From assembly GCA_045111335.1 (NCBI GenBank), contig JBGUGE010000038.1, positions 1 to 48,530 on the forward strand: 48,530 bases of DNA, read 5' to 3'. The notes below the pieces were generated by a model. That model was given only the letters and a program-made list of their open reading frames with translations. It made no database searches and had not been told where the DNA came from. The translations under genes were made by a program, and so were the position numbers. This stretch comes from Alphaproteobacteria bacterium (lineage in GTDB: Bacteria > Pseudomonadota > Alphaproteobacteria > RF32 > CAG-239). This document shows, in pieces, positions 11,069 through 38,426 of the stretch (the first letter of the stretch is position 1; each line of letters starts with the position of its first letter).

Positions 11069-11124
11069 AACTTGATTCTAACAAACAATCTGCATATAGT
11101 AAATCTAAATAAAGGGGATAACAA

Positions 11125-11894: not shown

Positions 11895-12091
11895 GGCTTG
11901 ATTTTTTGTGAAAAATCTGCGCCGCTTCGTCGGCTATCAGCTAACGCTGACCGGCGTTCTCTCGCCCGCCGGCGCCTCCTTGTGTCCCTCGCTACGCTCA
12001 CGACATCTTAACCGGCTCGCACAAATACGCTCGCCGACTGCGATTCCGAACCCGCTCTTCGCGTGTTCATATCTGATTGCTCGCAATCTAC

Positions 12092-12134
12092 AAACGCAAA
12101 AAAGCCACCCGAAATGAGTGGCTTTTTTGTGTTT
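12092..12134. terminator. Long hairpin before a TGGTCG tRNA-end remnant
   Basis: AAACGCAAAAAAGCCAC-N9-GTGGCTTTTTTGTGTTT. Confidence 0.7.
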
Positions 12135-12270
12135 ATGGTCGTGTATATGGCACGTTTTTAAGGAAAGCCCCGGTTCCGAGCTCCCTTGGTCATAAAATGC
12201 GAACTCCCAGTCCGCTTGGTGTTTTTGAAAGAAAGCAACTATAAGTACTTGTATAGTCAACATGCCTAAC

Positions 12271-12303
12271 ACGTCAAAAACTGTCGCAATTTGCTCTTAT
12301 AAT
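12271..12303 (+). promoter_or_regulatory. WYL operator-promoter, copy 2 (points at the DnaB-like gene)
   Basis: ACGTCAAAAACTGTCGC-N10-TATAAT. Confidence 0.7.
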
Positions 12304-12343
12304 ATAACCATTTTGAACCAATTGTTTATTATGGGAGCAGAAA

Positions 12344-13306: not shown

Positions 13307-13375
13307 CATTCTCTGCTCCGAAAGTAGGAATATGCTTCAATCCTTCATAACAAAGGATTGGATTTTATCCAATCC

Positions 13376-15286: not shown

Positions 15287-16564
15287 TTAATTTATCTCCT
15301 TTATTTGTGTATATAATGTCTCCCACTTTTCTCGCTGAGCTTTACCTGAATCCCGTTGGATATTAACTACTAAATTTGCAATTTCTTTATGATTTAAGGC
15401 ATTCCTTATTATCGAAAAAATAGGAATATTATTGGTATACCTGCTTTCTGAACTATGGCACGTAGTATAAGCATTGATGCTTGAAAACGGTAATACTTCT
15501 AAATCTACACGTAGCATAAAAGCCCAAGAAAATAGATTTTTTATCGCTTGCTTATCCCAATTATGAAATTTATCATAATAACAGAGTACAGCACATTCAA
15601 ATAAGGTTTTAGCATGCATAAAACCAGTAGAATTTTTATATGGATCAATTACTTTTGATTTATCAACTCCTATCAATTGATAAGCCTCATATTTTACGTA
15701 CTCTAAAAGTGGTACATAATAATCTACCATTTCAAAAAAGTGTTTCCCAGCAATGAAAGGCTCGGTTATTTGGAATATATTCATTGATTTTGCAACTCTT
15801 TTTGCATAAGTATACGAGCTATTTATGGAAACACCTTTATAATAATCAATTTCTTTTGCCGTAAAAGCAGAAGCTTTCTCTTTTCTTGACCATTTTAATA
15901 TGGGAAATAAATAATTTTCAAAAAGATTACGTATATCAGCAGGTTTAATTGCTTCCCATTTTCTTACAGCATTACGCATCTCAAAAGGTTCCTGATTTAT
16001 TTCTCTTAAGTGATAGGCTTTTAATAAATCATGCGGATTAAGCAACTTTCCGCGAGTGTTTTGAGAATCAAACAACTGAAATGCTTCCGTTTCTTTATCA
16101 ACAACTAAAACAACAAATTCAAAAATATTTGTAAAAGCGTTAAGGAGTAAATCCTTCTTATCTTCATGGGTAGAAACCCAACTACGAATATAGTGATAAT
16201 TTTGATAGATGTTTGATTTACTGATATCAGATTCACATTTTTCTTCTAACAAAGGATATGATTGGTTATTATCCAGACAATACAACAATAAAGATAAAGA
16301 AATACATCTCTGTTGTCCATCTACTATATCGTATCTCCCTCTGTTATTGTGCAAAATAACTGAACCTATCCTATATTTAAAATCTTTATATTGAAAACTA
16401 TCCACCAAAGCTTGTTCAATATCTTCCAATAGCGTTGATACATTTTTTATTGTCCATTTGTAAGGACGTTGATAATTTGGTATGTGCAAAGATTTTTGCA
16501 ACAAATCAAAAACACTCAGAATCTGAGCATTTTCTTGGATTTGTTTCTTAATCTCCTCGCTCAT
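15287..16564 (-). CDS. DUF262 (GmrS-like) protein without an HNH domain
   Basis: IPNYQRPYKW, IVDGQQRC, FDSQNTRG; its stop abuts the next ATG (TAAATG). Confidence 0.88.
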   Translation of the reverse strand: MSEEIKKQIQENAQILSVFDLLQKSLHIPNYQRPYKWTIKNVSTLLEDIEQALVDSFQYKDFKYRIGSVILHNNRGRYDIVDGQQRCISLSLLLYCLDNNQSYPLLEEKCESDISKSNIYQNYHYIRSWVSTHEDKKDLLLNAFTNIFEFVVLVVDKETEAFQLFDSQNTRGKLLNPHDLLKAYHLREINQEPFEMRNAVRKWEAIKPADIRNLFENYLFPILKWSRKEKASAFTAKEIDYYKGVSINSSYTYAKRVAKSMNIFQITEPFIAGKHFFEMVDYYVPLLEYVKYEAYQLIGVDKSKVIDPYKNSTGFMHAKTLFECAVLCYYDKFHNWDKQAIKNLFSWAFMLRVDLEVLPFSSINAYTTCHSSESRYTNNIPIFSIIRNALNHKEIANLVVNIQRDSGKAQREKWETLYTQIKEIN

Positions 16565-25506: not shown

Positions 25507-25971
25507 TCAAATGTGGGACTTTAGAGACTCTAAAAATGCCTGACAGCCCTCGCTGATGTCGTCATAGCTCTCGTCAAAATTACCGGTGTACCACGGGTCG
25601 CGGATATTGCGCGGATTTTTTGTGAAATCGAGAAGTCGGTAAATTTTTTGCTCCGTATCCGGACCGATAATCTCCAAAATATCATCAATATTGCTGTCAT
25701 CCATCGCGATGATGTAGTCGAAATACACGTAGTCGCGTGGGCGAATTTGCCGTGAATAATGCTCCTCGAAAGGAATTTGCACGGCTTTCAGCTTGTCGCG
25801 AGTGCCGTGATGAATGCCGGCGTGGCACATTTCGTTAAAGCGCTCGGTGGCCGCGGAATCAATATAAAATTGCTCCGACAGTCCCTTTTCGGCGACCATT
25901 TGCTTGAACACAAACTCCGCCATCGGCGACCGACAAATATTCCCTAAACATACAAACAGAACTTTGATCAT
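25507..25971 (-). CDS. Low-molecular-weight protein-tyrosine phosphatase
   Basis: VLFVCLGNICRSPMAE, DPWYTG. Confidence 0.95.
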   Translation of the reverse strand: MIKVLFVCLGNICRSPMAEFVFKQMVAEKGLSEQFYIDSAATERFNEMCHAGIHHGTRDKLKAVQIPFEEHYSRQIRPRDYVYFDYIIAMDDSNIDDILEIIGPDTEQKIYRLLDFTKNPRNIRDPWYTGNFDESYDDISEGCQAFLESLKSHI

Positions 25972-26120
25972 AAAAACACCTGAACTAATATATATATCGT
26001 CCCTATTATAACTATATAGTATAAAAATCAATGATATTTGATAATTGATAAAAAGGATTGCATTAAAATTTTTTACTACCTATATATGTATTATATCATA
26101 ATGTAACCGGAACTTAGTTT

Positions 26121-27806
26121 ATGTACACGTCAATAAAAATAAATAATTACAAGTGCTTTGCTACTGATAGTGAACCACAAGGGTTTGATATAATAAAACC
26201 GATAAATGTTATTATTGGTAAAAATAACAGTGGAAAATCAAAACTTTTGGAAGCTTTGGGAAAAATTGTAACAAAAAAACCTGAAGAATTACCTTTTAAT
26301 GGAATTTTTATAAGACTTTTACTGCAAGATGAAGTCGCTAGTATTTTTCCAACTAATCTTCCTGTTCAGCCTTTTTCGTTTCGGTGGTCTAGCTCCTCAA
26401 ATGCGTGGAACGATATCGGGCAATATTTTGTTAATGTACCTGCCGTGTTCATTTTGAAAAATAAGACGTATACCTTTGATCGCGCTTATCCCAGATATCA
26501 GGATTCAAACTGGAAAAATGATGCTATCGTAAAAAGACTTGAAAGCACGGTAAATTTTAATCCGTTTACTGGTTATCGTTTTCTGCACCTTCAAGCAGAA
26601 AGGGATATTAATAAAGAGCAAATTGATTATACGGTAGATATTTCCAAATATTATATTAAATCTAACTCAGAAGGAATTTGTGGTCTTATTGCACGCATGT
26701 TAAATGATGAAAGTGGAAACAATGATCATTGGCAAGAATACATAGAAAAAGAATTTCTTAATTTGATTAATTTGGTTGTAAATCCTGAAGTAAATTTTAC
26801 AAGAATCTATACTAAAATATCTCAAAATAATTATCACGAGATTTATTTAGAGGAAAAGAATAAGGGGGGAATAAAATTATCTGACTGTGGAAGTGGCTTA
26901 AAAACGATTATCTCGACACTTACTCTTTTACATATCATACCTCACTTAACTGGAAAATATAAAAATGTTTTTGCCTTAGAAGAACTAGAGAACAACCTTC
27001 ATCCAAGTTTAGAAAGAAAACTTCTAAAGCATATTAGAGAATATTCAGAAAAATATCCTGAGGCACTTATATTTTTAACAACGCACTCTAATGTTGCCTT
27101 AGATATGTTTGGGAAAGACTATCGTTCACAAATTGTACGTGTATGTAACGACGGTCAAAAATCAATCGTAGAAACAGTTATTTCTGATGACGATAAGCAA
27201 TTGCTGTTAGATGATTTAGGTGTGAAAGCAAGTGATTTATTACAGGCAAATAGTTTGATTTGGGTTGAGGGACCTTCTGATAGAATTTATATAAAAAAAT
27301 GGTTGGATTTGTTTTCAGAAGGGAAACTAGAGGAAGGTTTACAATACCAGTTTATTTGTTATGGAGGAGCTTTATTATCTAACTATACAGCCGGAGGCAA
27401 TAAAGATTTAATGGATCTTTTGAAAGTAAACAGACATTCTTATATTGTAATGGATAGTGATAAAAATAGCAATGAAGCAAAATTAAAGGAACGTGTTAAA
27501 AGAATTTCTAAAGAGTTGCCTGATAGTCACTGGATTACAGCTGGCAAAGAAATTGAAAATTATTTGCCGACGGAAGCATTAACAGAATACTTTGGTAAAA
27601 CAATAAATATAAAGAAAAATGCTTCATTCTCTAATTTATACAAGAAGGTAAAAAATGTTAAAACTTTTGATAAGGTGTCTTTTGCCTCTGAGATTACAAA
27701 AAATAAAAATTATACAAAAGATAATTTGTGTAAATGCTTAGATTTAGAGCAAAAAATCAAGGAACTAATGGCATTCATCGAAAAAAGCAATACTTCAAAA
27801 TGTTAA
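26121..27806 (+). CDS. OLD-like ABC ATPase + TOPRIM nuclease
   Basis: GKNNSGKS, CGSGLK, LEELENNLHP, TTHS; TOPRIM WVEGPSD, MDSD, EIENY. Confidence 0.88.
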   Translation: MYTSIKINNYKCFATDSEPQGFDIIKPINVIIGKNNSGKSKLLEALGKIVTKKPEELPFNGIFIRLLLQDEVASIFPTNLPVQPFSFRWSSSSNAWNDIGQYFVNVPAVFILKNKTYTFDRAYPRYQDSNWKNDAIVKRLESTVNFNPFTGYRFLHLQAERDINKEQIDYTVDISKYYIKSNSEGICGLIARMLNDESGNNDHWQEYIEKEFLNLINLVVNPEVNFTRIYTKISQNNYHEIYLEEKNKGGIKLSDCGSGLKTIISTLTLLHIIPHLTGKYKNVFALEELENNLHPSLERKLLKHIREYSEKYPEALIFLTTHSNVALDMFGKDYRSQIVRVCNDGQKSIVETVISDDDKQLLLDDLGVKASDLLQANSLIWVEGPSDRIYIKKWLDLFSEGKLEEGLQYQFICYGGALLSNYTAGGNKDLMDLLKVNRHSYIVMDSDKNSNEAKLKERVKRISKELPDSHWITAGKEIENYLPTEALTEYFGKTINIKKNASFSNLYKKVKNVKTFDKVSFASEITKNKNYTKDNLCKCLDLEQKIKELMAFIEKSNTSKC

Positions 27807-27847
27807 AGAGGCAAATTTATATTTAAATTGCTTAGGGGACTAATAAA

Positions 27848-28690
27848 ATGAAACAACAAATTAACGGAAACGATATTCTATACTACTTTTTAAAATCAAT
27901 GTTAGATGTGGAAAAAGAATTAGCACATGATTTTATTAGAAAGGCAATTATTAATTTAGGAATATGGATGTCACCTGAATATTATAAGCATTTGCCCGTT
28001 TTTTCTCCATTTGTAATACGGGATCTCAAATGTCGTGGAAATAAGTTAAAAAAAATACCAGAACGCTGGGGAGAACCAACTGAGAAAGGCTATTTTAAGG
28101 ATGACAATTCTATTATTAAGGGTTATGTTCGCTCATTTACGATACGCTCTCCTTTTTCATCTTATAATGGTTGCAAAATTGGAAATGCTTATGTTGCTTC
28201 GCACGTGTGGAGACAGCCAATTGGCTTTTCAACAAATGAAGATTTAGCATCAAAAAATCCATGGTTAAATTCATTTATCCCTAATTTGGTTTGGTTACCT
28301 CAACAATTATCCAAATTAAGTGATCGTGAAGGAGGGTATGTACAAACATTTATCCAAAAAGTTTCCTACCAGATATATCATGATATTACAACTGATTCTC
28401 CAGCATTCACAGACTCATTATGGAGTAAATTACCGGTGGAAGATATATCTGATGCAGAAAAAATTGCATTGTCTGATATCTCGTTTTTTAACTACGATGC
28501 AAAAGCGCTTGAAAGGCGAAAATCAGTGATTAATAATGTTATTAACGCATTACAAGAAAGAATATCTGGAAGAGATATTGAAATTAAAGTTGTTTCCGAC
28601 AGATACACTAGTGGTTTGAATTCTTTATCATGCACCAATTTAGTAGATCTTAAAAATGACCTAGAAGACTATATTAAGCAATTATCTTAA
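27848..28690 (+). CDS. Hypothetical protein, possible HNH-like nuclease
   Basis: ASHVW...NSFIPNLVWLP..LSKLSD pattern; 41 bp after the ATPase gene. Confidence 0.6.
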   Translation: MKQQINGNDILYYFLKSMLDVEKELAHDFIRKAIINLGIWMSPEYYKHLPVFSPFVIRDLKCRGNKLKKIPERWGEPTEKGYFKDDNSIIKGYVRSFTIRSPFSSYNGCKIGNAYVASHVWRQPIGFSTNEDLASKNPWLNSFIPNLVWLPQQLSKLSDREGGYVQTFIQKVSYQIYHDITTDSPAFTDSLWSKLPVEDISDAEKIALSDISFFNYDAKALERRKSVINNVINALQERISGRDIEIKVVSDRYTSGLNSLSCTNLVDLKNDLEDYIKQLS

Positions 28691-30244
28691 ATCGGCCAAT
28701 TTTATTTGACGATTTACACTAAATATCTCCCGTAATTCTTTGTGCGAAAAACTATTTTCTTGGTGCTTTTCAATTAATTTAATCATATTACTTACGGTTA
28801 TTCCGGAACCAGGAACTGATGTTTCGTCAACTTCTGATTGTATTTGTTTATCTATTGTATCAATAAAACCACCCGCTATATATGTAAAGAATCCTATCGG
28901 ATATTCACAATTACTATAGTTAGATATATTCTCTATGTAATTATGTACCATTCTGTTGTGATGATCACCAGAGATAGAGTATTTACTATACGCTTTATTA
29001 TCAATTATAGCTTGATAGCCATCGTTATCAGAAATAAGTAGCACGTCAGGTGTTGATTTTCTCCCTGTCTGTCCAAGATGTTGGGCGTTGTAACCAAAAA
29101 TATCCTTAAAAATATTCGTTGTTGCTATTTCAAAATCTATTGCATCATCTCTACCTTTAAATGCCATTTCATAATAGCCGGATAGAAAACCTCCTATCGC
29201 CCCATGTGGGTATTCTCGGTAAAGAACATTTTCAACTAAAGATGAAGCCGTGCCTGTATTTTGAGCTATTTTTTCAATAATATTAGCATCAATTTTTGAT
29301 ATAGGTTCATGGATTGAATATGCAATAAATGCCTGTCTAATGCGTTGCATTTCAATTGAACGACTAGAAATGGTTGATGTATTTAAAAGATTTCTCGTAT
29401 CTTTTTGATGCCATGGGTCTAAACCATATCTTCTTTGAAAAAATTCGTGGTCATCTGGGCGGGTAATAAAAGATGGAGAATGTGCCAATATAAATTTAAC
29501 TTCATCCAATTTTTCAGGGGACAATATTATTTTACCATCTTCCCTATAAATTAACTGAATGTATTCTAACCAGTTTACTATCGTATTAGCTGTATCTAAT
29601 AAATGGCTGTATGGGTGGCTTAAATTAACAATTCCTGTTGACGGAGCATGGGTATCAATAAAATCACTAGGTAATGAACTATCTCCATCATTTCTAAAAG
29701 CTATAATCTTTCCAATAACATCTTCCAAGCAAGCATTCGAATCATCAACACCTTCTGTCATTACAACTTTAGCAATTTCTTCCTCTGTCAAATAACTAAT
29801 ATTCTCATCAATAAGAAGGCGCAATAAAAAAATGAAGGGATGTATATGGAATTTAGGTGATACCTTTGTTTTTATTCCGAATGGAGAAGGAAACTGATAT
29901 TTTAATACTTGATTTTTGAGAATTGCGACCGGAGACTTTCCCTCCATAATAGCTTCTCCCGCCAAAGTTAAATACGGAATACCAGTCGCTTCTTGAATAA
30001 ATATTAGACCTAGGCTTGATAACCATGCTTGATAGGTTCTCCCTCCGGAACCGGAATGATCTCTTCTCTCTCCAATTCTTTTTAAACCACATCTTTCAAG
30101 TTCATCTTCAAATTGAATGTGAACCGATCTACTACCTGTCCATTGTGCAGATAGAGCGACATTAGAAAAAGCGGCCAATACTTCTGGAATACTGTTTAAC
30201 TTTCTTTTGGGACGAGTTACCCACCAATAATTTAAAATAGCCAT
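28682..30244 (-). CDS. Type IIS-like restriction endonuclease (AlwI-family N-terminus, FokI-like cleavage domain)
   Basis: LTLAGE...LKYQFPSP...IHPFIFLLRLL; C-terminal TPDVLL...IIDNKAYS (PD-DxK); co-oriented with the MTase. Confidence 0.8.
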   Translation of the reverse strand: MAILNYWWVTRPKRKLNSIPEVLAAFSNVALSAQWTGSRSVHIQFEDELERCGLKRIGERRDHSGSGGRTYQAWLSSLGLIFIQEATGIPYLTLAGEAIMEGKSPVAILKNQVLKYQFPSPFGIKTKVSPKFHIHPFIFLLRLLIDENISYLTEEEIAKVVMTEGVDDSNACLEDVIGKIIAFRNDGDSSLPSDFIDTHAPSTGIVNLSHPYSHLLDTANTIVNWLEYIQLIYREDGKIILSPEKLDEVKFILAHSPSFITRPDDHEFFQRRYGLDPWHQKDTRNLLNTSTISSRSIEMQRIRQAFIAYSIHEPISKIDANIIEKIAQNTGTASSLVENVLYREYPHGAIGGFLSGYYEMAFKGRDDAIDFEIATTNIFKDIFGYNAQHLGQTGRKSTPDVLLISDNDGYQAIIDNKAYSKYSISGDHHNRMVHNYIENISNYSNCEYPIGFFTYIAGGFIDTIDKQIQSEVDETSVPGSGITVSNMIKLIEKHQENSFSHKELREIFSVNRQIKLADLR

Positions 30245-30250
30245 TATACA

Positions 30251-31294
30251 TTACTCCTTAATGCTTGCCTCTGTGGATTCATAAGGAATTTCGGCAAAAG
30301 TTTTTAATATTGCTTCAAATATAATTTTTGCACCCTCTGCAGGAACAGCCATACCTATTTGTTTCCTTACAGATTCTTTACTACCCTTAAATACAAATTC
30401 ATCAGGAAAAGTTTGCAACCTAGCTCTTTCTCTGTTGGTCAATGCTCTATTTTCCTTCCAATGATATACATGGGTACCACCACCACCAGATCCGGTAATG
30501 GTATAAGCCGGCTTATTCGGATCCAACCTTTTATATATTTGGCTTATTTTAGCTCCTTTTACCTTTAATTGTAGCTCATCCGGTAATGTTGCCGTAAATG
30601 CATTTTGCCCCGGCTTTATATATTTTAACCTCTCTATTACTTGTGCAGATTGTTTTGTCTGCTCATTGTTATAAGCATTTTCTGGAATAGGTGGATTTTC
30701 AATAGCTTCTCTGCATGTTTTCATTGTATATAGCTTTGGAGACGGAACCTTAAATTCGTATGGCAGGTCTTTTCTAATGCCTATTATTATCATTCGATGC
30801 CTTGCTTGAGGAATTCCGTAATCTTCAAAATGGTATAGGTTTGGATAAATTTTATATCCTGCTTCAATCATATCTTGTTGAATTCGCTTGAAAGCAGAAC
30901 CGTCATTGGCAGATTTAATGCCACCAACATTTTCAGCCAAAAACCAACGAGGCTGATATTTTTTTAATACATAAATTCCGTAAGAATAAAGCGGACCATA
31001 TTTTCCTTTAAATCCGAGTTGCTCTCCGACCACAGAAAAGTCATTACACGGGAAACCAAATGCTAATGCATCTATAGGTCCTAATTTATCAATATCAAGC
31101 GTATGAACGTCCTCACAATATACAGTTTGTGGATCATTTGGACATATATTGTATGTATAGGTATCGCATGTATCTTTATCATAATCGTTAGCCCACGCAT
31201 GGACTATTCGCATTCCAGGAACGGTGGCATGCATTGCTCCCCATGCCAATCCTCCGGGACCGCAAAATAATTCTCCAAGCTTAAACTTTTCCAT
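30251..31294 (-). CDS. DNA (cytosine-5) methyltransferase
   Basis: LFCGPGG, GFPCNDFS, AENVGG, QARHR, RERARLQTFPD, QIGMAVP; start moved to ATG 31294. Confidence 0.95.
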   Translation of the reverse strand: MEKFKLGELFCGPGGLAWGAMHATVPGMRIVHAWANDYDKDTCDTYTYNICPNDPQTVYCEDVHTLDIDKLGPIDALAFGFPCNDFSVVGEQLGFKGKYGPLYSYGIYVLKKYQPRWFLAENVGGIKSANDGSAFKRIQQDMIEAGYKIYPNLYHFEDYGIPQARHRMIIIGIRKDLPYEFKVPSPKLYTMKTCREAIENPPIPENAYNNEQTKQSAQVIERLKYIKPGQNAFTATLPDELQLKVKGAKISQIYKRLDPNKPAYTITGSGGGGTHVYHWKENRALTNRERARLQTFPDEFVFKGSKESVRKQIGMAVPAEGAKIIFEAILKTFAEIPYESTEASIKE

Positions 31295-31387
31295 GATATA
31301 CCTCTTTCCTCTTTGTCTCAAAGTATAAAATGAAAATATAAAGAATCAATAAAATTATTATTTATATTAATGGTAAATTTGTTTATT

Positions 31388-31456
31388 CGTGACTTTTCCG
31401 TTCGGCAAATTGTGACTTTTTCGTTCGGTAATTTGTGACTTTTTTGTTTGGCAAAT
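31388..31456 (+). repeat. Three tandem 23-bp repeats
   Basis: CGTGACTTTTCCGTTCGGCAAAT / TGTGACTTTTTCGTTCGGTAATT / TGTGACTTTTTTGTTTGGCAAAT. Confidence 0.9.
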
Positions 31457-31607
31457 TGTAAAAAAAATATCTTAAAGATAGAAATAAATAATATTTTCCC
31501 TGGTTACAATATTTGCGAATTTGACATGTTGAAATTTTTATCGTATTCTATCACCGGAAGGGACGATGTGGGTACATCGTTTCAATTAACCTACAAACAG
31601 TAAGGAG

Positions 31608-31793
31608 GTGATTAAATTGTTGGAAGCGTTAAATATGCTGACTTGGGTATCAAGGGGTAACACTATCTATAGCTATACTCAGGCTCGCAATTTAAATGAT
31701 GTGATTAACATTACTATCCAATGTGCTATCACGGAATGCTTGTTGAATCAGGCAAAGAATAATATTGTTCGCAATCAATACCTTCTCCGGTAA
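31608..31793 (+). CDS. Small hypothetical protein
   Basis: Strong RBS TAAGGAGGTGA before TTG 31617; terminator at 31841-31873. Confidence 0.4.
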   Translation: MIKLLEALNMLTWVSRGNTIYSYTQARNLNDVINITIQCAITECLLNQAKNNIVRNQYLLR

Positions 31794-31912
31794 AGGTTGC
31801 TTGAAAGGAGCTCGTTATGTTTAATAAGCATAACAGATATAGAGTGGAAAGGTAAAACTGACCACTCTTTTTTATGCCTTAAGTATATTTATTTACTAGA
31901 TTTTTTACTAGG

Positions 31913-32084
31913 GTGACCAGCCAGAAGTGACCAGTGACCAGCCAGAATTTTTCACAATCACTCAGAAGCCTTATGGAATAAGGGTTTCCGCAAAGGGGTG
32001 ACCAGTAAACAAAAACCTGTTTCACTAGAAAAATGGCGCGGCTTGCGGCCCCGCATACAAAAATCGCCAGGAAGGACCCGTTAA
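31913..32084 (-). other. Lambda-like cos packaging site (cosQ-cosN plus repeats)
   Basis: Minus strand TTAACGGGTCCTTCCTGGCGATTTTTGTATGCGGGGCCGCAAGCCGCGCC versus lambda TTTACGGGTCCTTTCCGGTGATCCGACAGGTTACGGGGCGGCGACCTCGCGG; followed by four CTGGTCAC repeats (31913, 31927, 31934, 31998). Confidence 0.7.
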
Positions 32085-32191
32085 ATTTTCTGCCGGCGAT
32101 GAATATGTTGTATCAAAAGTTTTTTCTTTTTGACATCTCGCATTTTGCGGTGATAATTAAAGCAATTGTTATTTTTTAAAGGAGATAAAAA

Positions 32192-32536
32192 ATGCCGTAC
32201 ATTGAAGCAAAAATGAGTATTAAACTGGACGCAAGTCAGAAAGAGGACTTGCAAAAGAAGCTGACCGGTGCCGTTTCCGCCGCGTTTGGCAAGCCGAAAG
32301 CCTATATTATGGCCAATATTGAGGATGATAAATCGCTGTACATGGCTGAACGGAAGCTCGAAAAAGGTGCTTATATCGCCATCCGACTGTTGGGATCGGC
32401 ATCAAAATCGGCGTGTCAGGGGCTAACCGGCGAGATTTGTGACATTTTGCAAAGCGACTACGGAATTCCGGGCGCAAATGTTTATGTAACTTATCATCCG
32501 GCCGACCTCTGGGGTTGGAACGGAAGTATGTTCTAG
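32192..32536 (+). CDS. MIF/phenylpyruvate tautomerase-related protein
   Basis: N-terminal MP (catalytic Pro1), GKPKAYIM, C-terminal WGWNGSMF. Confidence 0.88.
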   Translation: MPYIEAKMSIKLDASQKEDLQKKLTGAVSAAFGKPKAYIMANIEDDKSLYMAERKLEKGAYIAIRLLGSASKSACQGLTGEICDILQSDYGIPGANVYVTYHPADLWGWNGSMF

Positions 32537-32553
32537 GCACAGTTTATAACCGG

Positions 32554-32584
32554 AAAAGGCGGTGGGGGAATACCACCGCCTTTT
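32554..32584. terminator. Bidirectional terminator
   Basis: AAAAGGCGGTGG-N7-CCACCGCCTTTT between convergent genes. Confidence 0.85.
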
Positions 32585-32594
32585 GTGTTACCGG

Positions 32595-33371
32595 TTAAAT
32601 ATATATGCCTTGATCAACCAATCGGTGTAAGGCAAAATGCCAACCGCCCAGTTTTTTGCCTTTCTGGTTACACCAATCGGTTCGCTCGTAGTGCTCAAAG
32701 AAATGATCCAGGTCAATATCCATATTGTTATTTTTAACATACAATTCCACTTCCGATCGATCCGGAGGGAATTGTTTAAAGTGGTATTTTAGTGGCGGAG
32801 GTTCCATTTGCCGAGCAAAAATAGCCCCTAAGCTCACAAAACCACCATTGTCCGGATCCGAAAAATTTCGCCTGCGCGTATAATTTTCTTTCCTTTTAAA
32901 ATTATTCCCTGGTTTATTTTCTTTAGTCGTGAGCGCCTGCAGTTCGGGTTCCGGGCTTATGTCGGGCTCAGGTCGGGCGTTGTCCTTATGACGACGCGTT
33001 CGAAACCGCTGATATTTCAAATAGTTAGACATTGAAATAAGTAGGGCGTTACCGAGGCGCATCGTCTTCACTTCGCCGATATTTTTCAGTTTAGTCAGCA
33101 AGCGCTTGACCTCGTCGCGTGATTTGTGCAAATCTTCGCCTATATGCGCGTAACTGGTGACGTATTCGCCGGGGTTAATCGTGCGTGTACCCCAAAAGCG
33201 CGTTTTATAATTGGCACGCATTAGCAGATAGATCATCATTTTCAGCGCCGCATCATCGTGAAACAGCGGCCAATTCACAAATTCCCGATCAATAGTAATA
33301 AAGCCATACTCAGACGGGATTGTATCCGGAAACGCCAAGCGTCCAGATTTATTCTGGTTTTCTGTTGTCAT
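32595..33371 (-). CDS. Phage-type replication initiator (wHTH N-terminus)
   Basis: GFITIDR...W...IYLLMRAN...GEYVTS...LLTKLKNIGEV; C-terminal FPPDRSEVELY...FFEHYERTDW...W. Confidence 0.75.
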   Translation of the reverse strand: MTTENQNKSGRLAFPDTIPSEYGFITIDREFVNWPLFHDDAALKMMIYLLMRANYKTRFWGTRTINPGEYVTSYAHIGEDLHKSRDEVKRLLTKLKNIGEVKTMRLGNALLISMSNYLKYQRFRTRRHKDNARPEPDISPEPELQALTTKENKPGNNFKRKENYTRRRNFSDPDNGGFVSLGAIFARQMEPPPLKYHFKQFPPDRSEVELYVKNNNMDIDLDHFFEHYERTDWCNQKGKKLGGWHFALHRLVDQGIYI

Positions 33372-33389
33372 TGAAATTTCTCTTATTGT

Positions 33390-35105
33390 TTATTCTTGGC
33401 GAAAGCCGAACATTTTGCGCTGTTCGTTCCAATCCACCGGAATTGTGTTGCGAATCAGGTCTTTAAGTGTTAAATCACGCGGTTGTAGACCGGCCAGAAT
33501 ACTCTCGACGATATCCGGCGCCAGGCAGGTCAGGCGAATGATTTTGCCCATATAACTGCGGTCCATCTGCTCGAGTTGTGCCAGTTCCTGAATATTTAAA
33601 TTGCCGCGTTCCAATTTATGTTGCCAGCCGAACGCCCGCACCAGGGCCACAATCATCTGCTTATCCTGATGCCGTTCTTCCGCCTCATTGCCGACATAAA
33701 TCTCGGTTTGTTGCCGGCGCTTCAAAAACGTTATGTTTTCGGTGGTTTCATAAGCGGTGGTGTCCGGATTATAAATCCAGATTTTATCATCAAGCAGGCT
33801 CTTTTGCACCAGCTCGTTCAGCCAAGGCTTGAGCTGAATTTTGATTTTATCCGGCCAAATCGTTATCCGCGAAATTGCCAGATTAAACAGCTGTTGCCGA
33901 GTTTCCGCGCCCAAAGCATTAATAAATTTGTTGCCTTGCACCACCTTAATCACGTCATATTCGCTTTTATCCGGCACGCGCTTTGTAACTTCATTGGAGA
34001 GCGAGTGAACGACCAGAGGGTCGGTCAACAAATCTTTGAGCTTGTTTATAACGTAATTTTCGAGTGCCAGCGCCGGCACCGATTTCACTTCGCAAAAGCG
34101 GTAACTCTTTTTAATCGCCTTGAGGGAAGTATAGTAATAATACTCCCGGCCGCGTTTAACCGCCTTGGTCGGCACCATCGCATAGCCGCAACACCCGCAA
34201 AATAAAAGACCTTTAAGTGTTTTGAACTCAAAGGTCTTGTTGATTGGTCCTTTTTCGGAAACCGGTTTGTCTTTCAGTTTATGCACCTTATCCCATAGGG
34301 CTTGCGAGATAATCGCCTCATGCTGTCCGTCGTAGAGCTCACCCTTATAAAAGATTTTGCCCAAGTAGATCCGGTTATCCAAAATCCGGTACAAATGGGC
34401 GCGGTCAAACTGCTTGCCGCCGACAACTTTGCCTTTTTTGGTAACCTTGCTTTTGGTGCGATAACCGTTGGAATTGAGCCAATCTGCCAGATATTGCGGC
34501 GATTTGCACACGGTGTATTTTTCAAACAACAGCCGCACCAACGCCGCTTCTTTAGGGTTGATGACCAGCTTTTTATCCTGCAAATCATAGCCGAGCGGCA
34601 ACGGTCCGCCCATCCACATGCCTTTCTTTTTTGAGGCCGAGATTTTATCACGGATCCGCTCGCCGCTGACTTCGCGCTCAAATTGCGCAAACGACAGCAA
34701 CACGTTCAAGGTCAGCCGGCCCATCGAATCATAGGTGTTGAAGTTCTGCGTGACCGAAACAAACGACACGTTATATTCGTCGAATAACTCGACCATCTTG
34801 GAAAAATCGGTTAGCGAACGGGTTAATCGGTCGATTTTATAGACCACAATCATATCAACTTTGCCGGCCCGGATATCTTCAAACAAGCGCTTGAGTGCCG
34901 GTCGATTCATATTGCCGCCGGAATAACCGCCGTCATCATAATGTTCCGCCAGCGCTTCCCAGCCTTGATGCACCTGCGACTTAACATAATTCAGTCCGGC
35001 TTCGCGTTGCGCCTCCAAGGTGTTAAACTCTTTTTCCAGTCCTTCGTCCGTCGATTTGCGCGTATAAATGGCGCATTTGATACTCTTTATAATATCTTCG
35101 CTCAT
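33390..35105 (-). CDS. Large serine recombinase (integrase) with C-terminal HTH extension
   Basis: AIYTRKST, DDGGYSG..RPAL, YKIDRLTRS, FAQFERE; recombinase domain YLG..GQHEAII; LFCGCCG; LAPDIVESILAG. Confidence 0.95.
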   Translation of the reverse strand: MSEDIIKSIKCAIYTRKSTDEGLEKEFNTLEAQREAGLNYVKSQVHQGWEALAEHYDDGGYSGGNMNRPALKRLFEDIRAGKVDMIVVYKIDRLTRSLTDFSKMVELFDEYNVSFVSVTQNFNTYDSMGRLTLNVLLSFAQFEREVSGERIRDKISASKKKGMWMGGPLPLGYDLQDKKLVINPKEAALVRLLFEKYTVCKSPQYLADWLNSNGYRTKSKVTKKGKVVGGKQFDRAHLYRILDNRIYLGKIFYKGELYDGQHEAIISQALWDKVHKLKDKPVSEKGPINKTFEFKTLKGLLFCGCCGYAMVPTKAVKRGREYYYYTSLKAIKKSYRFCEVKSVPALALENYVINKLKDLLTDPLVVHSLSNEVTKRVPDKSEYDVIKVVQGNKFINALGAETRQQLFNLAISRITIWPDKIKIQLKPWLNELVQKSLLDDKIWIYNPDTTAYETTENITFLKRRQQTEIYVGNEAEERHQDKQMIVALVRAFGWQHKLERGNLNIQELAQLEQMDRSYMGKIIRLTCLAPDIVESILAGLQPRDLTLKDLIRNTIPVDWNEQRKMFGFRQE

Positions 35106-35106
35106 G

Positions 35107-35526
35107 TTAACCTCTCTTTTCCGATAGTCCGAAAAAACTGTAACCCGAACAATGGCGACCGGTAATCTCCCGTGCCACCGCCGTCAGAGTCTTATAAATT
35201 TTGCCGTTGTATTCAATTTGCGACGCACCTTTAATGCGCACGCGATGCTCCACACCGTTATGGATTTTTACCAAAATCGTGCCGACACTCGGCAAGCGCT
35301 CATCTTTGATAAAAATCGGATTTCGGTATTCTTTCGAATTAAACATTTTAACCAGCATATTTTTTGTTTCCGGTTTCAAACCGCCGTATTTCAATTCCTG
35401 TAGCCTGTATCCGATACGGGATACGAAAAAAGCCTTACTGTTTGAACAATAAGGCTTATCAAAGTAGTCCAACCACATTTTCTGTAAATCTTTTAACGGA
35501 TAGTCCTCTAAATTTTTCCAATTCAT
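35107..35526 (-). CDS. DUF2924 family protein
   Basis: YRLQELKYGGL...GTILVK.HNG.EHRV...YNGKIYKTLTAVAREITGRHCSGYSFFGL; usual upstream partner of these recombinases. Confidence 0.9.
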   Translation of the reverse strand: MNWKNLEDYPLKDLQKMWLDYFDKPYCSNSKAFFVSRIGYRLQELKYGGLKPETKNMLVKMFNSKEYRNPIFIKDERLPSVGTILVKIHNGVEHRVRIKGASQIEYNGKIYKTLTAVAREITGRHCSGYSFFGLSEKRG

Positions 35527-35648
35527 GGCATTCCTTTCTGTTGAACAATGAATGCTTGCTTTTCGGTAGAAGTCCAGTAGTTTTTTGAAAAACAGGCACA
35601 AAAAAAGCCCTCGGAATTTTACTTCCGAAGGCCGGTTAAAGTAGTCCG

Positions 35649-36310
35649 TTTAAAACGCAAAAACGTGCGAAATTTGGTTTGCACACGTTTCTCCCGAATT
35701 ATACCAAAAAAAGTAGTAAAAAATGGCAAAAATGTAAACCCCCTTTTTTGTAGTGTACAAATTTCTTGTGGATAATTTTGTATGTTTTACACCTTTTAAG
35801 AGTATAAATCATTGATTTTAGAAGTTTTCACACTTCGCCACCGATTATACCGTTCAAGATAGCATAAAGCGGCAAAAATGTCGCGAACTATTTTGTCGCG
35901 ACAAATTTTATGTTAAAACTTCCGGGTATTTAAAACGCAAAAAACGTGCGGAACCTGATCCTCACACGTTTCTCCCGAACTATACCAAAAAAAGTAGCAA
36001 AAAACGGCAAAAATGTTAACTACTTTTTTGTTAAGAACATATTTCTTGTGGACAGTTATGTATGTTCTAGGCGTATTTAAAACATAACACATTGATTCTT
36101 ATTATTTTTCTCTGCCGATTATATCAGAAAAGCTAACATAAAATAATCAAAATGTCTTGTACTTTTATGTCCTGACAATTTTTTTGTTACATTTACGAAA
36201 AAAACGTGTGGAATTAGTTTCGCACACGCTTCTCCCGAATTATATCAAGAAAAGTAACATAAAACGCTTGCATTGTCACGGTCTAATATGTCAATGACAA
36301 ATTAGACAGG
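35649..36310 (-). repeat. Three-unit array (periods 281 and 260 bp) of promoter-hairpin modules
   Basis: AAACGTGYG-N12-CACACGYTTCTCCCGAAYTATAYC at 35661, 35942 and 36202; units 1-2 also share IHF-like AATCAA-N4-TTA, and all share TGTC..GACA motifs. Confidence 0.85.
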
Positions 36311-36676
36311 GATAACTTTTTGTCATTTGCTCTTTTAAGGGTGCAAAATAAACACGAATTATGTTATTGCATTATTGCTGTTTTTATATCTTTCTGGGTA
36401 GTATTTTTCTGTGTCTCGCAATTATCAATTTAAAGGTATCCGGTTTCGCCTTTGGGATATGTTTCCCCAGTATATGGCACGTTTTGGAACAAAAATCGAG
36501 ATATAGCGAAATTATATCGCAAATTCAAAGAATTAAGAAGAGAGTGATTTTCCACTACCGTTTCAGGCGTTTTAGTACAAACAAGGAATTTTTCATAAAA
36601 AAGCGTATAGATACGCGACCAGACCATTTTATAAATTTTTGCAAACATGCCGCAAAATCTGGGCTTTAATGGCATA

Positions 36677-36709
36677 AAAAAATACCCACCGCTTAAGGTA
36701 GGTATTTTT
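36677..36709 (-). terminator. tRNA-Pro terminator
   Basis: AAAAATACCCACC-N7-GGTAGGTATTTTT. Confidence 0.7.
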
Positions 36710-36712
36710 CAT

Positions 36713-36789
36713 TGGTCGGGGCGACGAGATTCGAACACGCGACATCTTGGTCCCAAACCAAGCGCTCTACCAGGCTGAGCTACACCCCG
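36713..36789 (-). tRNA. tRNA-Pro (TGG)
   Basis: CGGGGTGTAGCTCAGCCTGGTAGAGCGCTTGGTTTGGGACCAAGATGTCGCGTGTTCGAATCTCGTCGCCCCGACCA; cloverleaf with CCA end. Confidence 0.97.
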
Positions 36790-36833
36790 TCGACCAAAGC
36801 TATATTTACACCATATTTTTTATTTTGCAAGCA

Positions 36834-37607
36834 TTATTTTTTAGCTTTTTTCTTTTTCTTATCGCTCTTGTCATCAATAATTCTGCCATCCTCACCGCGG
36901 CGTTTGGGCGGTGTAATTAATCCGGCACTGCGAAAGCTGTATATTCCGTCTTTGGCCACAATCAAATGATCAAACAACTCCAGATTCATAACGTCTGTCA
37001 ATGCCTCAATTTCTTTAGTAACGGCTATATCATATGTTGACGGTTTGTATGCGCCCGACGGATGGTTGTGAATAAGAATTATGTATACCGCGTTATTTTC
37101 CAATGCGGCGCGAATAACTTCTCGCGGATGTACGGTGGCCTGATTGACGGTACCGCTCGAGATTTGTTTGCCGCCGATATAATGATGCCCTTCATCCAAA
37201 AAGCAAACATGGAATTCTTCAATTTCGGCATAGGCTAATCTTTGCCAATAATATTCTTCAAGCTGTTGCCAATCCGAAATTACCGGATTTTCCGAAACCG
37301 TAAATCCCTGATATGCCGAGCGTAGCATACAGGTATGCAATAATCGTAATAACACGATGGAGTTCGGACTGAGATCAGCTTCATCCAAAAGCTTATGCGC
37401 CGGCGCATTTATAACGCCTTTTATATTGTCATATTTAGCAATCAGTTTCTTGGCAATCGGTTTAACATCGCGGCGTGGAATCGCCATAGTCAGCAACAAT
37501 TCCAACAGCTCGTAATCCGGCATACTTGCGCCTTCATCGGCCATAAAACGTGAGCGTAAACGTTCGCGATGTCCGTAATATGAAGGTTTTTCTTCTGAGT
37601 TGGTCAT
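36834..37607 (-). CDS. radC: RadC/UPF0758 JAB-domain protein
   Basis: GHRERLRSRF, DYELLELLL, HPREV, HNHPSG, DHLIV. Confidence 0.95.
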   Translation of the reverse strand: MTNSEEKPSYYGHRERLRSRFMADEGASMPDYELLELLLTMAIPRRDVKPIAKKLIAKYDNIKGVINAPAHKLLDEADLSPNSIVLLRLLHTCMLRSAYQGFTVSENPVISDWQQLEEYYWQRLAYAEIEEFHVCFLDEGHHYIGGKQISSGTVNQATVHPREVIRAALENNAVYIILIHNHPSGAYKPSTYDIAVTKEIEALTDVMNLELFDHLIVAKDGIYSFRSAGLITPPKRRGEDGRIIDDKSDKKKKKAKK

Positions 37608-37625: not shown

Positions 37626-38426
37626 TTATTTATAAGGAGGCTTGTCAAGACCTCTTGGGGAATAAGTAAACACCTCAGCCCCGTCTTTGGTAACACCCAT
37701 CGAGTGCTCAAATTGCGCTGACCAACTATGGTCGCAAGTTACGGCCGTCCAACCGTTTGAAAGAATTACTCCGTCCTTTTTGCCGAGGTTAATCATCGGT
37801 TCAATGGTAAAAAACATACCTTCTTCCATTATCGGACCGGTTCCCTTAACCCCGCAATGCATTACGTTCGGCTCATCATGAAATACTTTGCCTAAACCGT
37901 GACCGCAAAACATATCAACCACCGAATAACCGTATTTATGGGCGTATTCTTCAATAACTGCTCCGATGTCACCGAAGTGCGCTCCCGGTTTTACTACGTC
38001 AATACCGCGCATAAGGCATTCGTAAGTTACTTCGCACAGGCGTTTTCCCTTAATTTTGGGTTTGCCGGCAAAATACATACGACTGGTGTCACCGTAATAG
38101 CCGTCAACAATAGCCGTAACATCAATATTTAAAATATCGCCGTCGGCCAATTTGCGCTCATAATCGGGAATGCCATGGCATATTACCTGATTGATGGAAA
38201 TACAGGTTGCTTTCGGATATCCGTGATAGCCCAAACAAGCAGAAGTTGCGCCCTTGCTTTCCATAAATTTTAAGCACAGGTCATCCAATTCACCGGTGGT
38301 GATACCGACATCAACATAATCGGCGATATAGTCCAAACACTCGGCCGCAACTTTTCCGGCTTTGCGCATTCCGGCAAAATCTTCGGGACTGTCATATATT
38401 TTTATGCCGTGTTTATTAGTATACAT
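37626..38426 (-). CDS. map: Methionine aminopeptidase type I
   Basis: CHGIP, NIDVT, GDTSRM, GHGLG..FHDEP, FTIEPMIN, AQFEH. Confidence 0.97.
   Translation of the reverse strand: MYTNKHGIKIYDSPEDFAGMRKAGKVAAECLDYIADYVDVGITTGELDDLCLKFMESKGATSACLGYHGYPKATCISINQVICHGIPDYERKLADGDILNIDVTAIVDGYYGDTSRMYFAGKPKIKGKRLCEVTYECLMRGIDVVKPGAHFGDIGAVIEEYAHKYGYSVVDMFCGHGLGKVFHDEPNVMHCGVKGTGPIMEEGMFFTIEPMINLGKKDGVILSNGWTAVTCDHSWSAQFEHSMGVTKDGAEVFTYSPRGLDKPPYK

What the first reader, a model, noticed from the sequence alone, without database searches (positions are those of the whole stretch)
31913..35526. Lambda-like cos site on an element with no packaging genes: candidate new phage-satellite type
Seen: exact lambda cosQ heptamer GGGTCCT, then 21 nt on a cosN-like CG-GGGCCGCAAGCC-GCG (lambda CG-GGGCGGCGACCT-CGCG, 23 nt on), then four CTGGTCAC repeats placed like cosB R sites; co-oriented with DUF2924-serine integrase-rep. 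No terminase, portal, capsid, tail, AlpA or primase recognised. Known: cos-type PICIs and P4 hijack helper packaging and carry defence hotspots, mostly with tyrosine integrases. Inference: a minimal integrase + initiator + cos satellite moving about 20 kb of defence cargo.
Basis: partly seen in the sequence, partly recalled or inferred. Interest (0 to 1): 0.85.

Follow-up and report, generated by a model that had tools for sequence, protein, structure and literature searches.

The report
Lambda-type cos site on minimal satellite
A small integrase-plus-replication element with no virus-particle genes carries the same DNA-packaging site as a family of lambda-like phages of the same bacterial genus, so it is probably a minimal phage satellite that carries anti-phage defence genes.

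Summary
On the minus strand, 31913-32086 holds GGGTCCT, a GC-rich dyad 20-21 nt further on, and four CTGGTCAC octamers. The heptamer alone is at chance level. The block as a whole is conserved at 74-85% nucleotide identity in about 35-kb prophages of the same genus. These prophages have a lambda gpA-type large terminase, gpE capsid, S49 protease and portal. Across phages, cosQ-like and cosN-like parts stay constant while the octamer changes. Each octamer change goes with two residues in the predicted recognition helix of the small terminase, as expected for cosB. The window element (DUF2924, large serine recombinase, DnaD/O-like initiator, MIF-like gene, 23-nt iterons) has no packaging gene. 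It recurs downstream of tRNA-Pro in at least 9 of 50 genus genomes with intact genes, low dN/dS, lower dS than the flanking genes and a variable defence slot. Best reading (about 0.6): a minimal cos-type satellite, a natural cosmid. Not shown: cleavage, encapsidation, excision or element ends. No cognate helper is in this assembly, and several copies have lost the recombinase. The "20 kb cargo" is not established; the variable slot here holds about 5 kb. It is a new variant of a known kind.

The parts
32073..32079 (-). cosQ-like heptamer GGGTCCT
   Evidence: It is identical to the lambda heptamer seen and is kept in 22 of 24 aligned copies.
32036..32054 (-). cosN-like GC-rich 19-mer with partial two-fold symmetry, centre at about 32045; predicted nicking site
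   Evidence: The flanks are invariant (CAAGCCGCG in 24 of 24) and the 3-4 central bases vary. The T-run behind it is not conserved and there is no compensatory change, so it is not a terminator hairpin. Cleavage is inferred.
31913..32005 (-). cosB-like part: four CTGGTCAC octamers. One is near cosN (31998-32005) and three are distal (31934-31941, 31927-31934, 31913-31920). The spacer between them contains an inverted repeat.
   Evidence: The octamer type co-varies with the TerS helix in 26 of 26 loci.
31378..31459 (.). three copies of a 36-nt repeat unit at 23-nt spacing, so the copies overlap; probable origin iterons for the element's own initiator
   Evidence: family D1. In G018 and in the second G049 copy they abut the octamers. 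They are absent from the phage copies. The function is inferred.
31460..31912 (+). 453-bp insertion/deletion segment with a promoter-like site and a 61-aa ORF (31608-31793)
   Evidence: It is present in G037, G002, G007 and G013, and absent in G018, G049 and G031.
32192..32536 (+). MIF/tautomerase-like gene with a strong sigma-70-like promoter at 32130-32157
   Evidence: Pfam MIF, E = 3.1e-9. The promoter matches 11 of 12 positions.
32595..33371 (-). replication initiator (DnaD-like / phage O-like N-terminal domain)
   Evidence: PHROG 2514, E = 2.8e-13, and related families. No Pfam hit.
33390..35105 (-). large serine recombinase
   Evidence: Pfam Resolvase, Recombinase and Zn_ribbon_recom.
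35107..35526 (-). DUF2924 protein, always directly upstream of the recombinase
   Evidence: Pfam DUF2924, E = 1.3e-31. The same pairing occurs in the prophages and in the TerS-bearing elements.
26121..31321 (.). variable cargo slot. Here it holds an OLD/AbiL/GajA-like ATPase, a 280-aa partner of unknown family, and a FokI-like type IIS endonuclease with an m5C methylase.
   Evidence: The content differs between copies, from about 0.8 to 13 kb.
25507..26031 (-). low-molecular-weight phosphatase gene that borders the cargo slot in every copy that reaches that far
   Evidence: dS is 0.56-0.84, below that of the flanking genes. Whether it belongs to the element is open.
36713..36789 (-). tRNA-Pro, 1.1 kb from the DUF2924 end; neighbourhood of the integration site
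   Evidence: The related elements lie next to tRNA-Glu or tRNA-Met.

Best explanation
The block 31913-32086 (minus strand) is a lambda-type cohesive-end packaging site. It has a cosQ heptamer, a cosN-like dyad and four octamers that bind the small terminase.

The block sits on a core module of about 4.2 kb. The module holds DUF2924, a large serine recombinase, a DnaD/O-like initiator, a MIF-like gene and 23-nt iterons. It lies downstream of tRNA-Pro, with a variable slot for defence genes next to the cos.

The element has no terminase or structural gene. The same block is the conserved non-coding site of about 35-kb temperate phages of the same genus, which have a lambda gpA-type large terminase.

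Likely mechanism:
1. A cognate phage (small terminase with the helix LNAVQTA) infects the cell or is induced.
2. The recombinase excises the element (inferred).
3. The initiator fires at the iterons and concatemers form (inferred).
4. The phage terminase binds the octamers and nicks at about 32045. It fills phage capsids starting with the cargo side, probably with multimers, since no capsid-remodelling gene is present (inferred).

Shown here: homology of the site, the terminase type, co-variation of octamer and small terminase, recurrence, constraint and lower divergence of the element.
For: 1. The block is shared at 74-85% nucleotide identity over about 175 nt with elements whose recombinase is only 43-49% identical in protein. 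These elements are full prophages. In L078 they carry TerL (PHROG 15), TerS (PHROG 57) and portal. Pfam finds GpA_ATPase at 1.1e-91, GpA_nuclease at 1.2e-85, capsid E, an S49 protease and a GpJ tail protein.

2. In viral contigs, 20 of 80 TerL-related loci carry the block on the TerL strand, out of 33 loci that have more than 7 kb upstream of TerL. In those loci it always lies 114-304 nt before a ParB-methylase gene, and 2.7-5.5 kb before TerS where TerS was detected.

3. The stretch directly upstream of TerS is conserved in 0 of 17 compared loci. The block is conserved in 16-17 of 17.

4. Order, orientation and spacing are as in lambda: heptamer, 20 nt (23 in lambda), dyad, repeats, then the genes that lead to TerS and TerL. 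Passages of PMC4669245 state that the 7-bp cosQ is highly conserved among lambda-like phages. They also state that lambda and 21 share cosQ and cosN but differ in cosB and TerS specificity.

5. The same pattern holds here. cosQ- and cosN-like parts are constant, while the octamer class varies and tracks TerS helix 18-26: LNAVQTA with CTGGTC in 19 of 19, LSAVQ[N/K]A with GTGGTC in 4 of 4, LAAVQKA with GGTTGTC in 1 of 1, TRQYVNKL with GTTGACA in 2 of 2. Two TerS groups (L115 and L182 against L111, L113 and L134) have the same first 18 residues and about 84% identity over the first 70. The differences include two helix residues, and their octamer differs by one base. The helix is the second helix of a predicted winged HTH, pLDDT about 80.

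6. In a third group of elements the block lies directly before TerS, with an IHF-consensus match between the first and second repeat.

7. The element is recurrent and constrained. The initiator is full length in 8 of 50 genus genomes and cut by a contig end in a ninth. dN/dS is about 0.04-0.1 for the recombinase and DUF2924. dS is 0.09-0.93 against 1.19-1.93 for flanking RadC, Map and TspO in the same genome pairs.

8. Decayed copies have damaged cos parts. G058 (L086) has GTGTCC. The decayed TerS-bearing copy in G033 (L179) has TGGTCC and a broken dyad.

9. No structural or packaging family was found in the scanned ORFs.
Against: - There is no physical evidence. All 22 listed sequencing runs are kept as contigs, so molecule ends cannot be seen.
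- The initiator has no relative in 2.9 million viral contigs: 0 of 58 candidate stretches. The exact 21-mer of the dyad is absent there.
- No cognate helper is in this 92%-complete assembly. Its only gpA prophage (contig C74) has GTTGACA repeats, and its TerS matches only over residues 119-168 at 35%. Cognate prophages co-occur in 3 of 9 element-bearing genomes (G018, G031, G049).
- All copies seen lie at the same tRNA-Pro locus. No att site, empty site or circular junction was found.
- The recombinase is deleted or truncated in G005, G007 and three metagenome contigs, L195, L199 and L203.
- In the phages the block is 2.7-6.6 kb from TerS, not adjacent as in lambda.
- All repeats are direct, whereas R2 is inverted in lambda.
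- The window copy has four repeats where most copies have five. It has no match to the IHF consensus (the consensus itself is recalled).
- TerS shows no sequence similarity to lambda Nu1.
- Similarity to lambda cos is not significant on its own.
Confidence: 0.6

Rival explanations
1. The block is a true cos, but the element is a fixed and slowly decaying island at tRNA-Pro. It would be a relic of, or recombinant with, a phage, and would not be packaged as an excised unit. Any transfer would be in situ: packaging starts at the chromosomal cos and runs into the neighbouring defence genes. Otherwise there is no transfer at all.
For: - All copies are at one locus.
- The recombinase is lost in 5 copies.
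- No att sites or circular junction were found.
- No cognate helper is in this assembly.
- In G049 two co-oriented blocks lie about 19.4 kb apart and bracket the defence region. That would allow cos-to-cos packaging without excision.
Against: - Recombinase, DUF2924 and initiator are intact with low dN/dS in most copies.
- dS of the element is well below that of the flanking genes, which points to spread between species.
- The initiator and the iterons are not phage-derived leftovers, because the prophages carry other genes at that place.
Confidence: 0.2
2. The block is not a packaging site. It is another cis-acting region shared by phage and element: a late-operon control region, a binding site for the ParB-methylase encoded just downstream in the phages, or a replication origin.
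For: - In the phages the block lies right before the ParB-methylase gene and 2.7-6.6 kb from TerS.
- ParB-domain proteins bind repeated sites (general knowledge).
- The block follows the replication-like genes in all three kinds of element.
- There are no end data.
Against: - The octamer class follows the TerS helix, not the ParB-methylase. For the first 120 residues of the ParB-methylase, identity within a class goes down to 48% and identity between classes goes up to 89%.
- The TerS-bearing elements have the block directly before TerS and have no ParB-methylase.
- The window element has no ParB-methylase, and its initiator is unrelated to the phage's apart from a weak C-terminal match, E = 0.004.
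- No promoter-like site was called inside 31913-32090. The only one nearby drives the MIF-like gene on the other strand.
- No Rfam family matches the block.
Confidence: 0.12
3. The resemblance to lambda cos is chance, in an ordinary intergenic region.
For: The heptamer is at chance frequency. The local alignment to lambda is within the range of the shuffles.
Against: The block is conserved in 24 of 50 genus genomes and in 20 viral contigs, always in the same place in gpA-terminase phages.
Confidence: 0.02

Closest known systems
Phage lambda cos (cosQ-cosN-cosB) and its relatives in 21 and N15
   Same: - The same heptamer.
- The same order, orientation and near-same spacing.
- A gpA-family large terminase in the cognate phages.
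- cosQ and cosN constant, while cosB repeats and the TerS helix change together (passages of PMC4669245).
   Different: - The repeats are all direct.
- The block is 2.7-6.6 kb upstream of TerS in the phages.
- TerS has no sequence similarity to Nu1.
- The putative cohesive-end sequence differs.
- The window copy has no IHF consensus match.
- The ends have not been mapped.
cos-type PICIs of enterobacteria (EcCICFT073 group) and satellite P4
   Same: They are integrated elements without structural genes that carry the helper's cos and defence or accessory hotspots. This rests on listings and abstracts of PMC6739421, PMC9026076 and PMC9122126, and on recall.
   Different: - Those have tyrosine integrases, AlpA or primase-type replication genes.
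- They also have packaging or capsid redirection genes (Rpp, Sid, Psu).
- None of these was found among the ORFs scanned here.
PICMI (phage-inducible chromosomal minimalist islands)
   Same: Gene content is minimal, with excision and replication functions only. There is no capsid-remodelling gene, so packaging as multimers in full-size heads is the expected route (abstract and passages of PMC10803314).
   Different: PICMIs integrate next to fis, use virulent helpers and show random ends, which suggests headful packaging. No cos was found in them. This element has a defined cos and a serine recombinase.
PLE of Vibrio cholerae and serine-recombinase VEIMEs
   Same: Satellites that integrate with a serine recombinase. 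VEIMEs are packaged as concatemers (passages of PMC9618062).
   Different: The gene sets, hosts and helpers are unrelated. No shared lambda-type cos has been described for them.

Membership tests
lambda-type cos site | 7-bp cosQ upstream of cosN on the same strand | tested here: met
   GGGTCCT at 32079-32073, 20 nt before the dyad. It is the same heptamer as in the lambda record and is kept in 22 of 24 copies.
lambda-type cos site | cosN: a nicking site with partial two-fold symmetry that yields cohesive ends | tested here: inconclusive
   A 19-mer with 6 of 9 symmetric pairs (my count). Its flanks are invariant and its centre is variable. Cleavage and ends cannot be seen, because all runs are kept as contigs.
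lambda-type cos site | cosB: several TerS-binding repeats whose sequence matches TerS specificity | tested here: met
   Four octamers. The octamer class matches the TerS helix class in 26 of 26 loci, across four classes. These loci are related, so there are only about three independent changes.
lambda-type cos site | IHF site between the first and second repeat | tested here: not met
   No match to WATCAANNNNTTR (a recalled consensus) in 31913-32090. Matches are present at that place in the TerS-bearing elements and in some phages.
lambda-type cos site | lies directly upstream of the small-terminase gene | tested here: not met
   The window has no TerS. In the phages the block is 2.7-6.6 kb upstream. 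It is adjacent only in the TerS-bearing elements.
lambda-type cos site | cognate phage has a gpA-family large terminase | tested here: met
   GpA_ATPase 1.1e-91 and GpA_nuclease 1.2e-85 in L078. The family is found in 13 of 50 genus genomes.
phage satellite (general) | no capsid, tail or terminase genes, but its own integration and replication genes | tested here: met
phage satellite (general) | carries the packaging signal of a helper phage | tested here: met
   Met at the sequence level only: 74-85% identity to the block of gpA-terminase prophages, with the same octamer.
phage satellite (general) | found in virus particles; helper-dependent excision, replication and transfer | tested here: inconclusive
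   Not found in viral contigs, but such collections select for viral hallmark genes. No read-level data are available.
PICI / P4-like satellites | tyrosine integrase, AlpA, primase-type replication gene, and redirection genes (Rpp, Sid, Psu, Ccm, TerS) | tested here: not met
   None was found among the 40 ORFs scanned with Pfam or in the 20 ORF scans run with PHROGs. ORFs under 80 aa were mostly not scanned. SatelliteFinder could not be run.

The most novel reading that the evidence does not exclude
A nested three-level system in uncultured rumen Alphaproteobacteria:

1. Lambda-like phages of about 35 kb.
2. Serine-recombinase satellites that keep only cos and a small terminase.
3. A still smaller 'natural cosmid' that keeps only cos.

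All three would share one cosB specificity class. That specificity can be switched by two residues in the small terminase together with one base in the octamer. Each level places a defence-gene hotspot on the side of cos that enters the capsid first. In some genomes (G049) two co-oriented cos sites bracket a defence island of about 19 kb. The island could then be packaged cos-to-cos without excision.
Probability: 0.4. Interest if true: 0.75.

Novelty: new variant of a known kind. Interest (0 to 1): 0.62.

Why it matters
If it holds, this is a satellite stripped to recombinase, initiator and cos, and its candidate helpers were identified from sequence alone in an uncultured rumen lineage.

- It gives a natural test bed for how cosB and small-terminase specificity evolves. 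Near-identical terminases differ at two helix residues, and their repeats differ by one base.
- It shows how defence genes (restriction-modification, OLD/Gabija-like ATPases, GmrSD-type nucleases) may move between species in a gut community.
- It suggests a search rule for satellites that marker-gene tools miss: look for a phage's conserved cos block outside phages.

Tried and rejected
**Searches that found nothing**
- Rfam on 31200-37000 found only tRNA-Pro and two sub-threshold chance hits.
- A terminator reading of the dyad was rejected. No terminator-like site was called, the T-run is not conserved, and the central bases vary without compensation.
- blastn of 31322-32191 against 50,697 phage records gave no match.
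- The dyad 21-mer is absent from viral contigs. A 17-mer of two octamers gave 3 hits in unrelated GC-rich contexts, judged to be chance.
- The initiator has no relative in viral contigs.

**Empty site and att sites**
- G011, G017 and others carry other sequence and arrays of short repeats behind tRNA-Pro, so no clean junction emerged.
- The prophage in G011 has no copy of the tRNA-Glu end at its far side. The 19-20-nt copy of the tRNA-Pro 3' end at 11875-11894 is therefore probably not made by this kind of recombinase.
- Ten metagenome contigs show the same chromosomal context, no circular junction, and three recombinase deletions.

**Sequencing runs**
- All 22 listed runs are Logan contigs. 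20 hold part of the stretch and only one holds half or more of its words. The runs carry gut or metagenome organism labels.
- Four runs were laid. No molecule ends can be seen (table 6: none).
- The cargo part 27.8-30.8 kb has almost no cover in them, while the core is covered.
- One short-sided joint skips 31459-31913. Two short-sided joints run from about 31370 to about 36816-36838, with unknown letters between. All have sides under 30 letters, so none is used as evidence.

**Protein comparisons**
- TerS against lambda Nu1 by BLASTP: no similarity.
- Foldseek search of the TerS model: nothing at E <= 0.001. The best weak rows for the first 50 residues are Xis, BldC and MerR-type winged helices. 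Lambda gpNu1 is at rank 15 and the 6hn7 chain at rank 47. This is only weakly consistent with a Nu1-like fold.
- Initiator against the phage DUF6291 protein: a weak C-terminal match only.

**Tools and limits**
- Supplements of the papers were not seen. Those of PMC9618062 and PMC10085698 list satellite families and could hold a related element.
- Searches for prior description found none. The three DUF2924 papers were seen only as listings and concern Wolbachia.

Full report
**What is there.**
The window is a whole 48.5-kb contig of a 1.63-Mb, 92%-complete assembly. Records with close relatives of the initiator are titled as uncultured (Alpha)proteobacteria MAGs. On the minus strand the region reads as follows.

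- DUF2924 at 35107-35526.
- A large serine recombinase at 33390-35105, with Resolvase, Recombinase and Zn-ribbon domains.
- A 258-aa protein at 32595-33371. It has no Pfam family, but PHROGs place its N-terminal part with DnaD-like loaders and O-like initiators, best E = 2.8e-13.
- A convergent MIF/tautomerase-like gene (32192-32536, plus strand) with a near-consensus promoter.
- The block in question (31913-32086).
- A 453-bp segment with a 61-aa ORF.
- Three 23-nt-spaced repeats (31378-31459).
- Defence genes: an m5C methylase with a FokI-like endonuclease, and an OLD/AbiL/GajA-like ATPase with a partner of unknown family. Then a low-molecular-weight phosphatase, a GmrSD-HNH protein and a 101-aa ORF.

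tRNA-Pro lies 1.1 kb beyond DUF2924.

**The observation.**

- Taken alone, the heptamer is at chance frequency.
- The best local alignment to the true lambda junction, fetched by accession, is 18 of 22 bases. That is within the range of shuffles.
- The octamers are clustered far beyond chance: 4 against 0.45 expected, all within 93 nt.

**The decisive comparison.**
A DNA search of 50 genomes of the genus found the block in 24. Ten copies (nine genomes) belong to the same element at tRNA-Pro. Fourteen further copies were laid out, at 74-85% identity. Most of them sit in a different element with a DUF2924 and serine-recombinase pair only 43-49% identical in protein, next to tRNA-Glu or tRNA-Met.

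In G011 this second element is a prophage of about 35 kb with all genes on one strand. The order is:

- recombinase module;
- a sigma-like HTH protein, DUF6291, DUF6362 and a SAM-synthetase-like gene;
- the block;
- a ParB-methylase and a variable stretch with an M15 peptidase;
- TerS, TerL and portal;
- an S49 protease, capsid protein E and a GpJ-type tail protein.

TerL is a lambda gpA homologue, with both Pfam domains near 1e-90.

Viral contigs with TerL at 75-84% identity show the same layout. The block is on the TerL strand in 20 of 80 loci, out of 33 loci that reach 7 kb upstream. In those loci it always lies 114-304 nt before the ParB-methylase, and 2.7-5.5 kb before TerS where TerS was detected.

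Among 17 related loci, the stretch just upstream of TerS is never conserved. The block is conserved in 16-17.

**Why the block is read as cos.**
In the 24-copy alignment, homology between the two kinds of element starts at ACGGGTCC. In the phages it ends at the last octamer, just before the ribosome-binding site of the next gene.

Within it:
- the heptamer is kept in 22 of 24 copies;
- CAAGCCGCG of the dyad is kept in 24 of 24;
- the first repeat with its left flank is kept in 24 of 24.

The 3-4 central bases of the dyad vary without compensation, and the T-run behind it is not kept. The constraint is therefore on DNA sequence, not on an RNA hairpin.

The assembly's own gpA prophage (contig C74, TerL 51% identical) has the same heptamer and a related dyad at the same place, between DUF6362 and a ParB-domain gene. 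It has different repeats (GTTGACA), and its TerS matches only in the C-terminal part.

Across 26 loci, four repeat classes go with four versions of residues 18-24 of TerS, without exception.
- The most telling pair is L115 and L182 against L111, L113 and L134. Their TerS proteins share the first 18 residues and are about 84% identical over the first 70.
- The differences include N19S and T23N, and their repeats differ by one base (GGCTGGTC against GGGTGGTC).
- An AlphaFold model puts these residues in the second helix of a helix-turn-helix with a wing (pLDDT about 80). Fold matches are weak.
- The first 120 residues of the ParB-methylase do not track the repeat class.

This is the lambda and 21 pattern as described in passages of PMC4669245: common cosQ and cosN, with specificity in cosB and TerS. 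These loci are related, so the 26 of 26 stands for about three independent changes.

**A third kind of element.**
Four genomes (G057, G054, G014, G039) and a decayed copy in G033 have this order: tRNA-Met, DUF2924, recombinase, DUF6291, DUF6362, sigma-like gene, block, TerS. No TerL follows.

Here the block is directly before TerS, as in lambda. An IHF-consensus match lies between the first and second repeat. In G057 the next genes are Gabija-like (OLD-type ATPase and UvrD helicase) and a type I restriction system.

**The window element.**
- *Recurrence.* Its initiator is full length in 8 of 50 genus genomes, cut by a contig end in one more, and a remnant in three. A scan of one genome for each of 185,579 species found close relatives in only 10 loci.
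- *Position.* All copies lie at tRNA-Pro.
- *Conservation.* The core from the iterons to DUF2924 is 89-94% identical between species. The stretch between the iterons and the phosphatase holds different genes, from about 0.8 kb in G018 to 13 kb in G031.
- *Divergence.* Synonymous divergence of DUF2924, recombinase, initiator, MIF-like gene and phosphatase is 0.09-0.93. For RadC, Map and TspO in the same genome pairs it is 1.19-1.93. dN/dS is low. The element has therefore moved between species or recombined since they split, and its genes are under purifying selection.
- *Origin.* The iterons are specific to this element and abut the octamers in G018 and G049. They are the likely origin for its own initiator, and the octamers are the part shared with the phages.

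**What argues against, and what is open.**
- No read-level data exist for ends.
- The element is not in viral contigs.
- No cognate helper is in this assembly. Cognate prophages are present in 3 of 9 element-bearing genomes.
- Five copies lack most of the recombinase.
- No att site, empty site or circle was found.
- The phages keep the block 2.7-6.6 kb from TerS. If the block is cos, the ParB-methylase and lysis genes lie at the left end of the virion DNA.
- The extent of the element is unsettled. A 19-20-nt copy of the tRNA-Pro 3' end at 11875-11894 bounds a 24.8-kb region. The related prophage makes no such repeat, and the area behind tRNA-Pro is an array of short repeats in all genomes. I therefore treat 12-23 kb as a neighbouring or composite island.
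- In G049 a second co-oriented copy of MIF-like gene, block and iterons lies at the far end of that island, about 19.4 kb from the first.

**Comparison and verdict.**
The site works like lambda cos. It meets most of the sequence-level features of that family but not adjacency to TerS or, in this copy, the IHF site.

The element works like a cos-type satellite, but it is not a PICI, a P4-like element or a PLE by gene content. In its minimalism it resembles PICMIs, which are pac-like and lack a defined cos (PMC10803314, abstract and passages). It also resembles serine-recombinase VEIMEs (PMC9618062, passages).

I rate it a new variant of a known kind. I put the probability that the block is the phages' cos at about 0.85. 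I put the probability that the element is mobilised through it as a satellite at about 0.6.

Noticed in passing
L177 (G057:C2) 9114-15265; also L178, L180, L181, and a decayed copy in L179: A family of elements with this order: tRNA-Met, DUF2924, serine recombinase, DUF6291, DUF6362, sigma-like gene, cos block, small terminase. There is no large terminase. In G057 the family lies next to Gabija-like genes and a type I restriction system. These are probable TerS-bearing satellites of the same phages.
   Followed up: partly
G000 contig C74, 31337-37054 (outside the window): The assembly's own gpA-terminase prophage. It has the same heptamer and a related dyad at 36380-36482, but GTTGACA repeats and a different small terminase. 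It also has a weak relative of the window's initiator at 37736-38152.
   Followed up: partly
window 11875-11894 and 36713-36731: A direct repeat of the 3' end of tRNA-Pro (19-20 nt) with similar downstream flanks (11574-11894 against 36424-36731). It bounds a 24.8-kb region with DnaB-C helicase, two GmrSD-type genes, a WYL regulator, ankyrin, Fic, DinB and the element itself.
   Followed up: partly
L034 about 10644 and L035 about 10059 (G049:C3): Two co-oriented copies of MIF-like gene, cos block and iterons lie about 19.4 kb apart and bracket the defence island. The second copy lacks initiator and recombinase and lies next to a tRNA-Pro fragment.
   Followed up: partly
window 13376-16564: The pair of GmrSD-type genes has dS of 0.01-0.02 between G000 and G049, while neighbouring genes have 0.57-0.83. 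This points to a very recent transfer of this pair.
   Followed up: no
window 3706-3947, 35678-35866, 35963-36140, 36195-36266: Copies of a repeat of about 190 bp. In relatives it precedes a homologue of the 153-aa ORF at 4014-4475. Further short repeats lie at 10008-10110, 11574-11666 and 36424-36585.
   Followed up: no
window 1620-10012: A ShlB/FhaC-type transporter, a protein with Tlde1/YkuD-like domains (4576-5676) and four 114-aa ORFs (6950-7294, 7371-7715, 7799-8143, 9668-10012). The one 114-aa ORF scanned (6950-7294) had no Pfam family. This looks like an effector with an array of immunity-like genes.
   Followed up: no
between initiator and MIF-like gene in L010, L034, L040, L041 (window equivalent 32545/32550): An extra segment of about 910 bp (676 bp in G013) is present in G018, G049, G002 and G007. 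It is absent from the window and from G037. Its content was not annotated.
   Followed up: no
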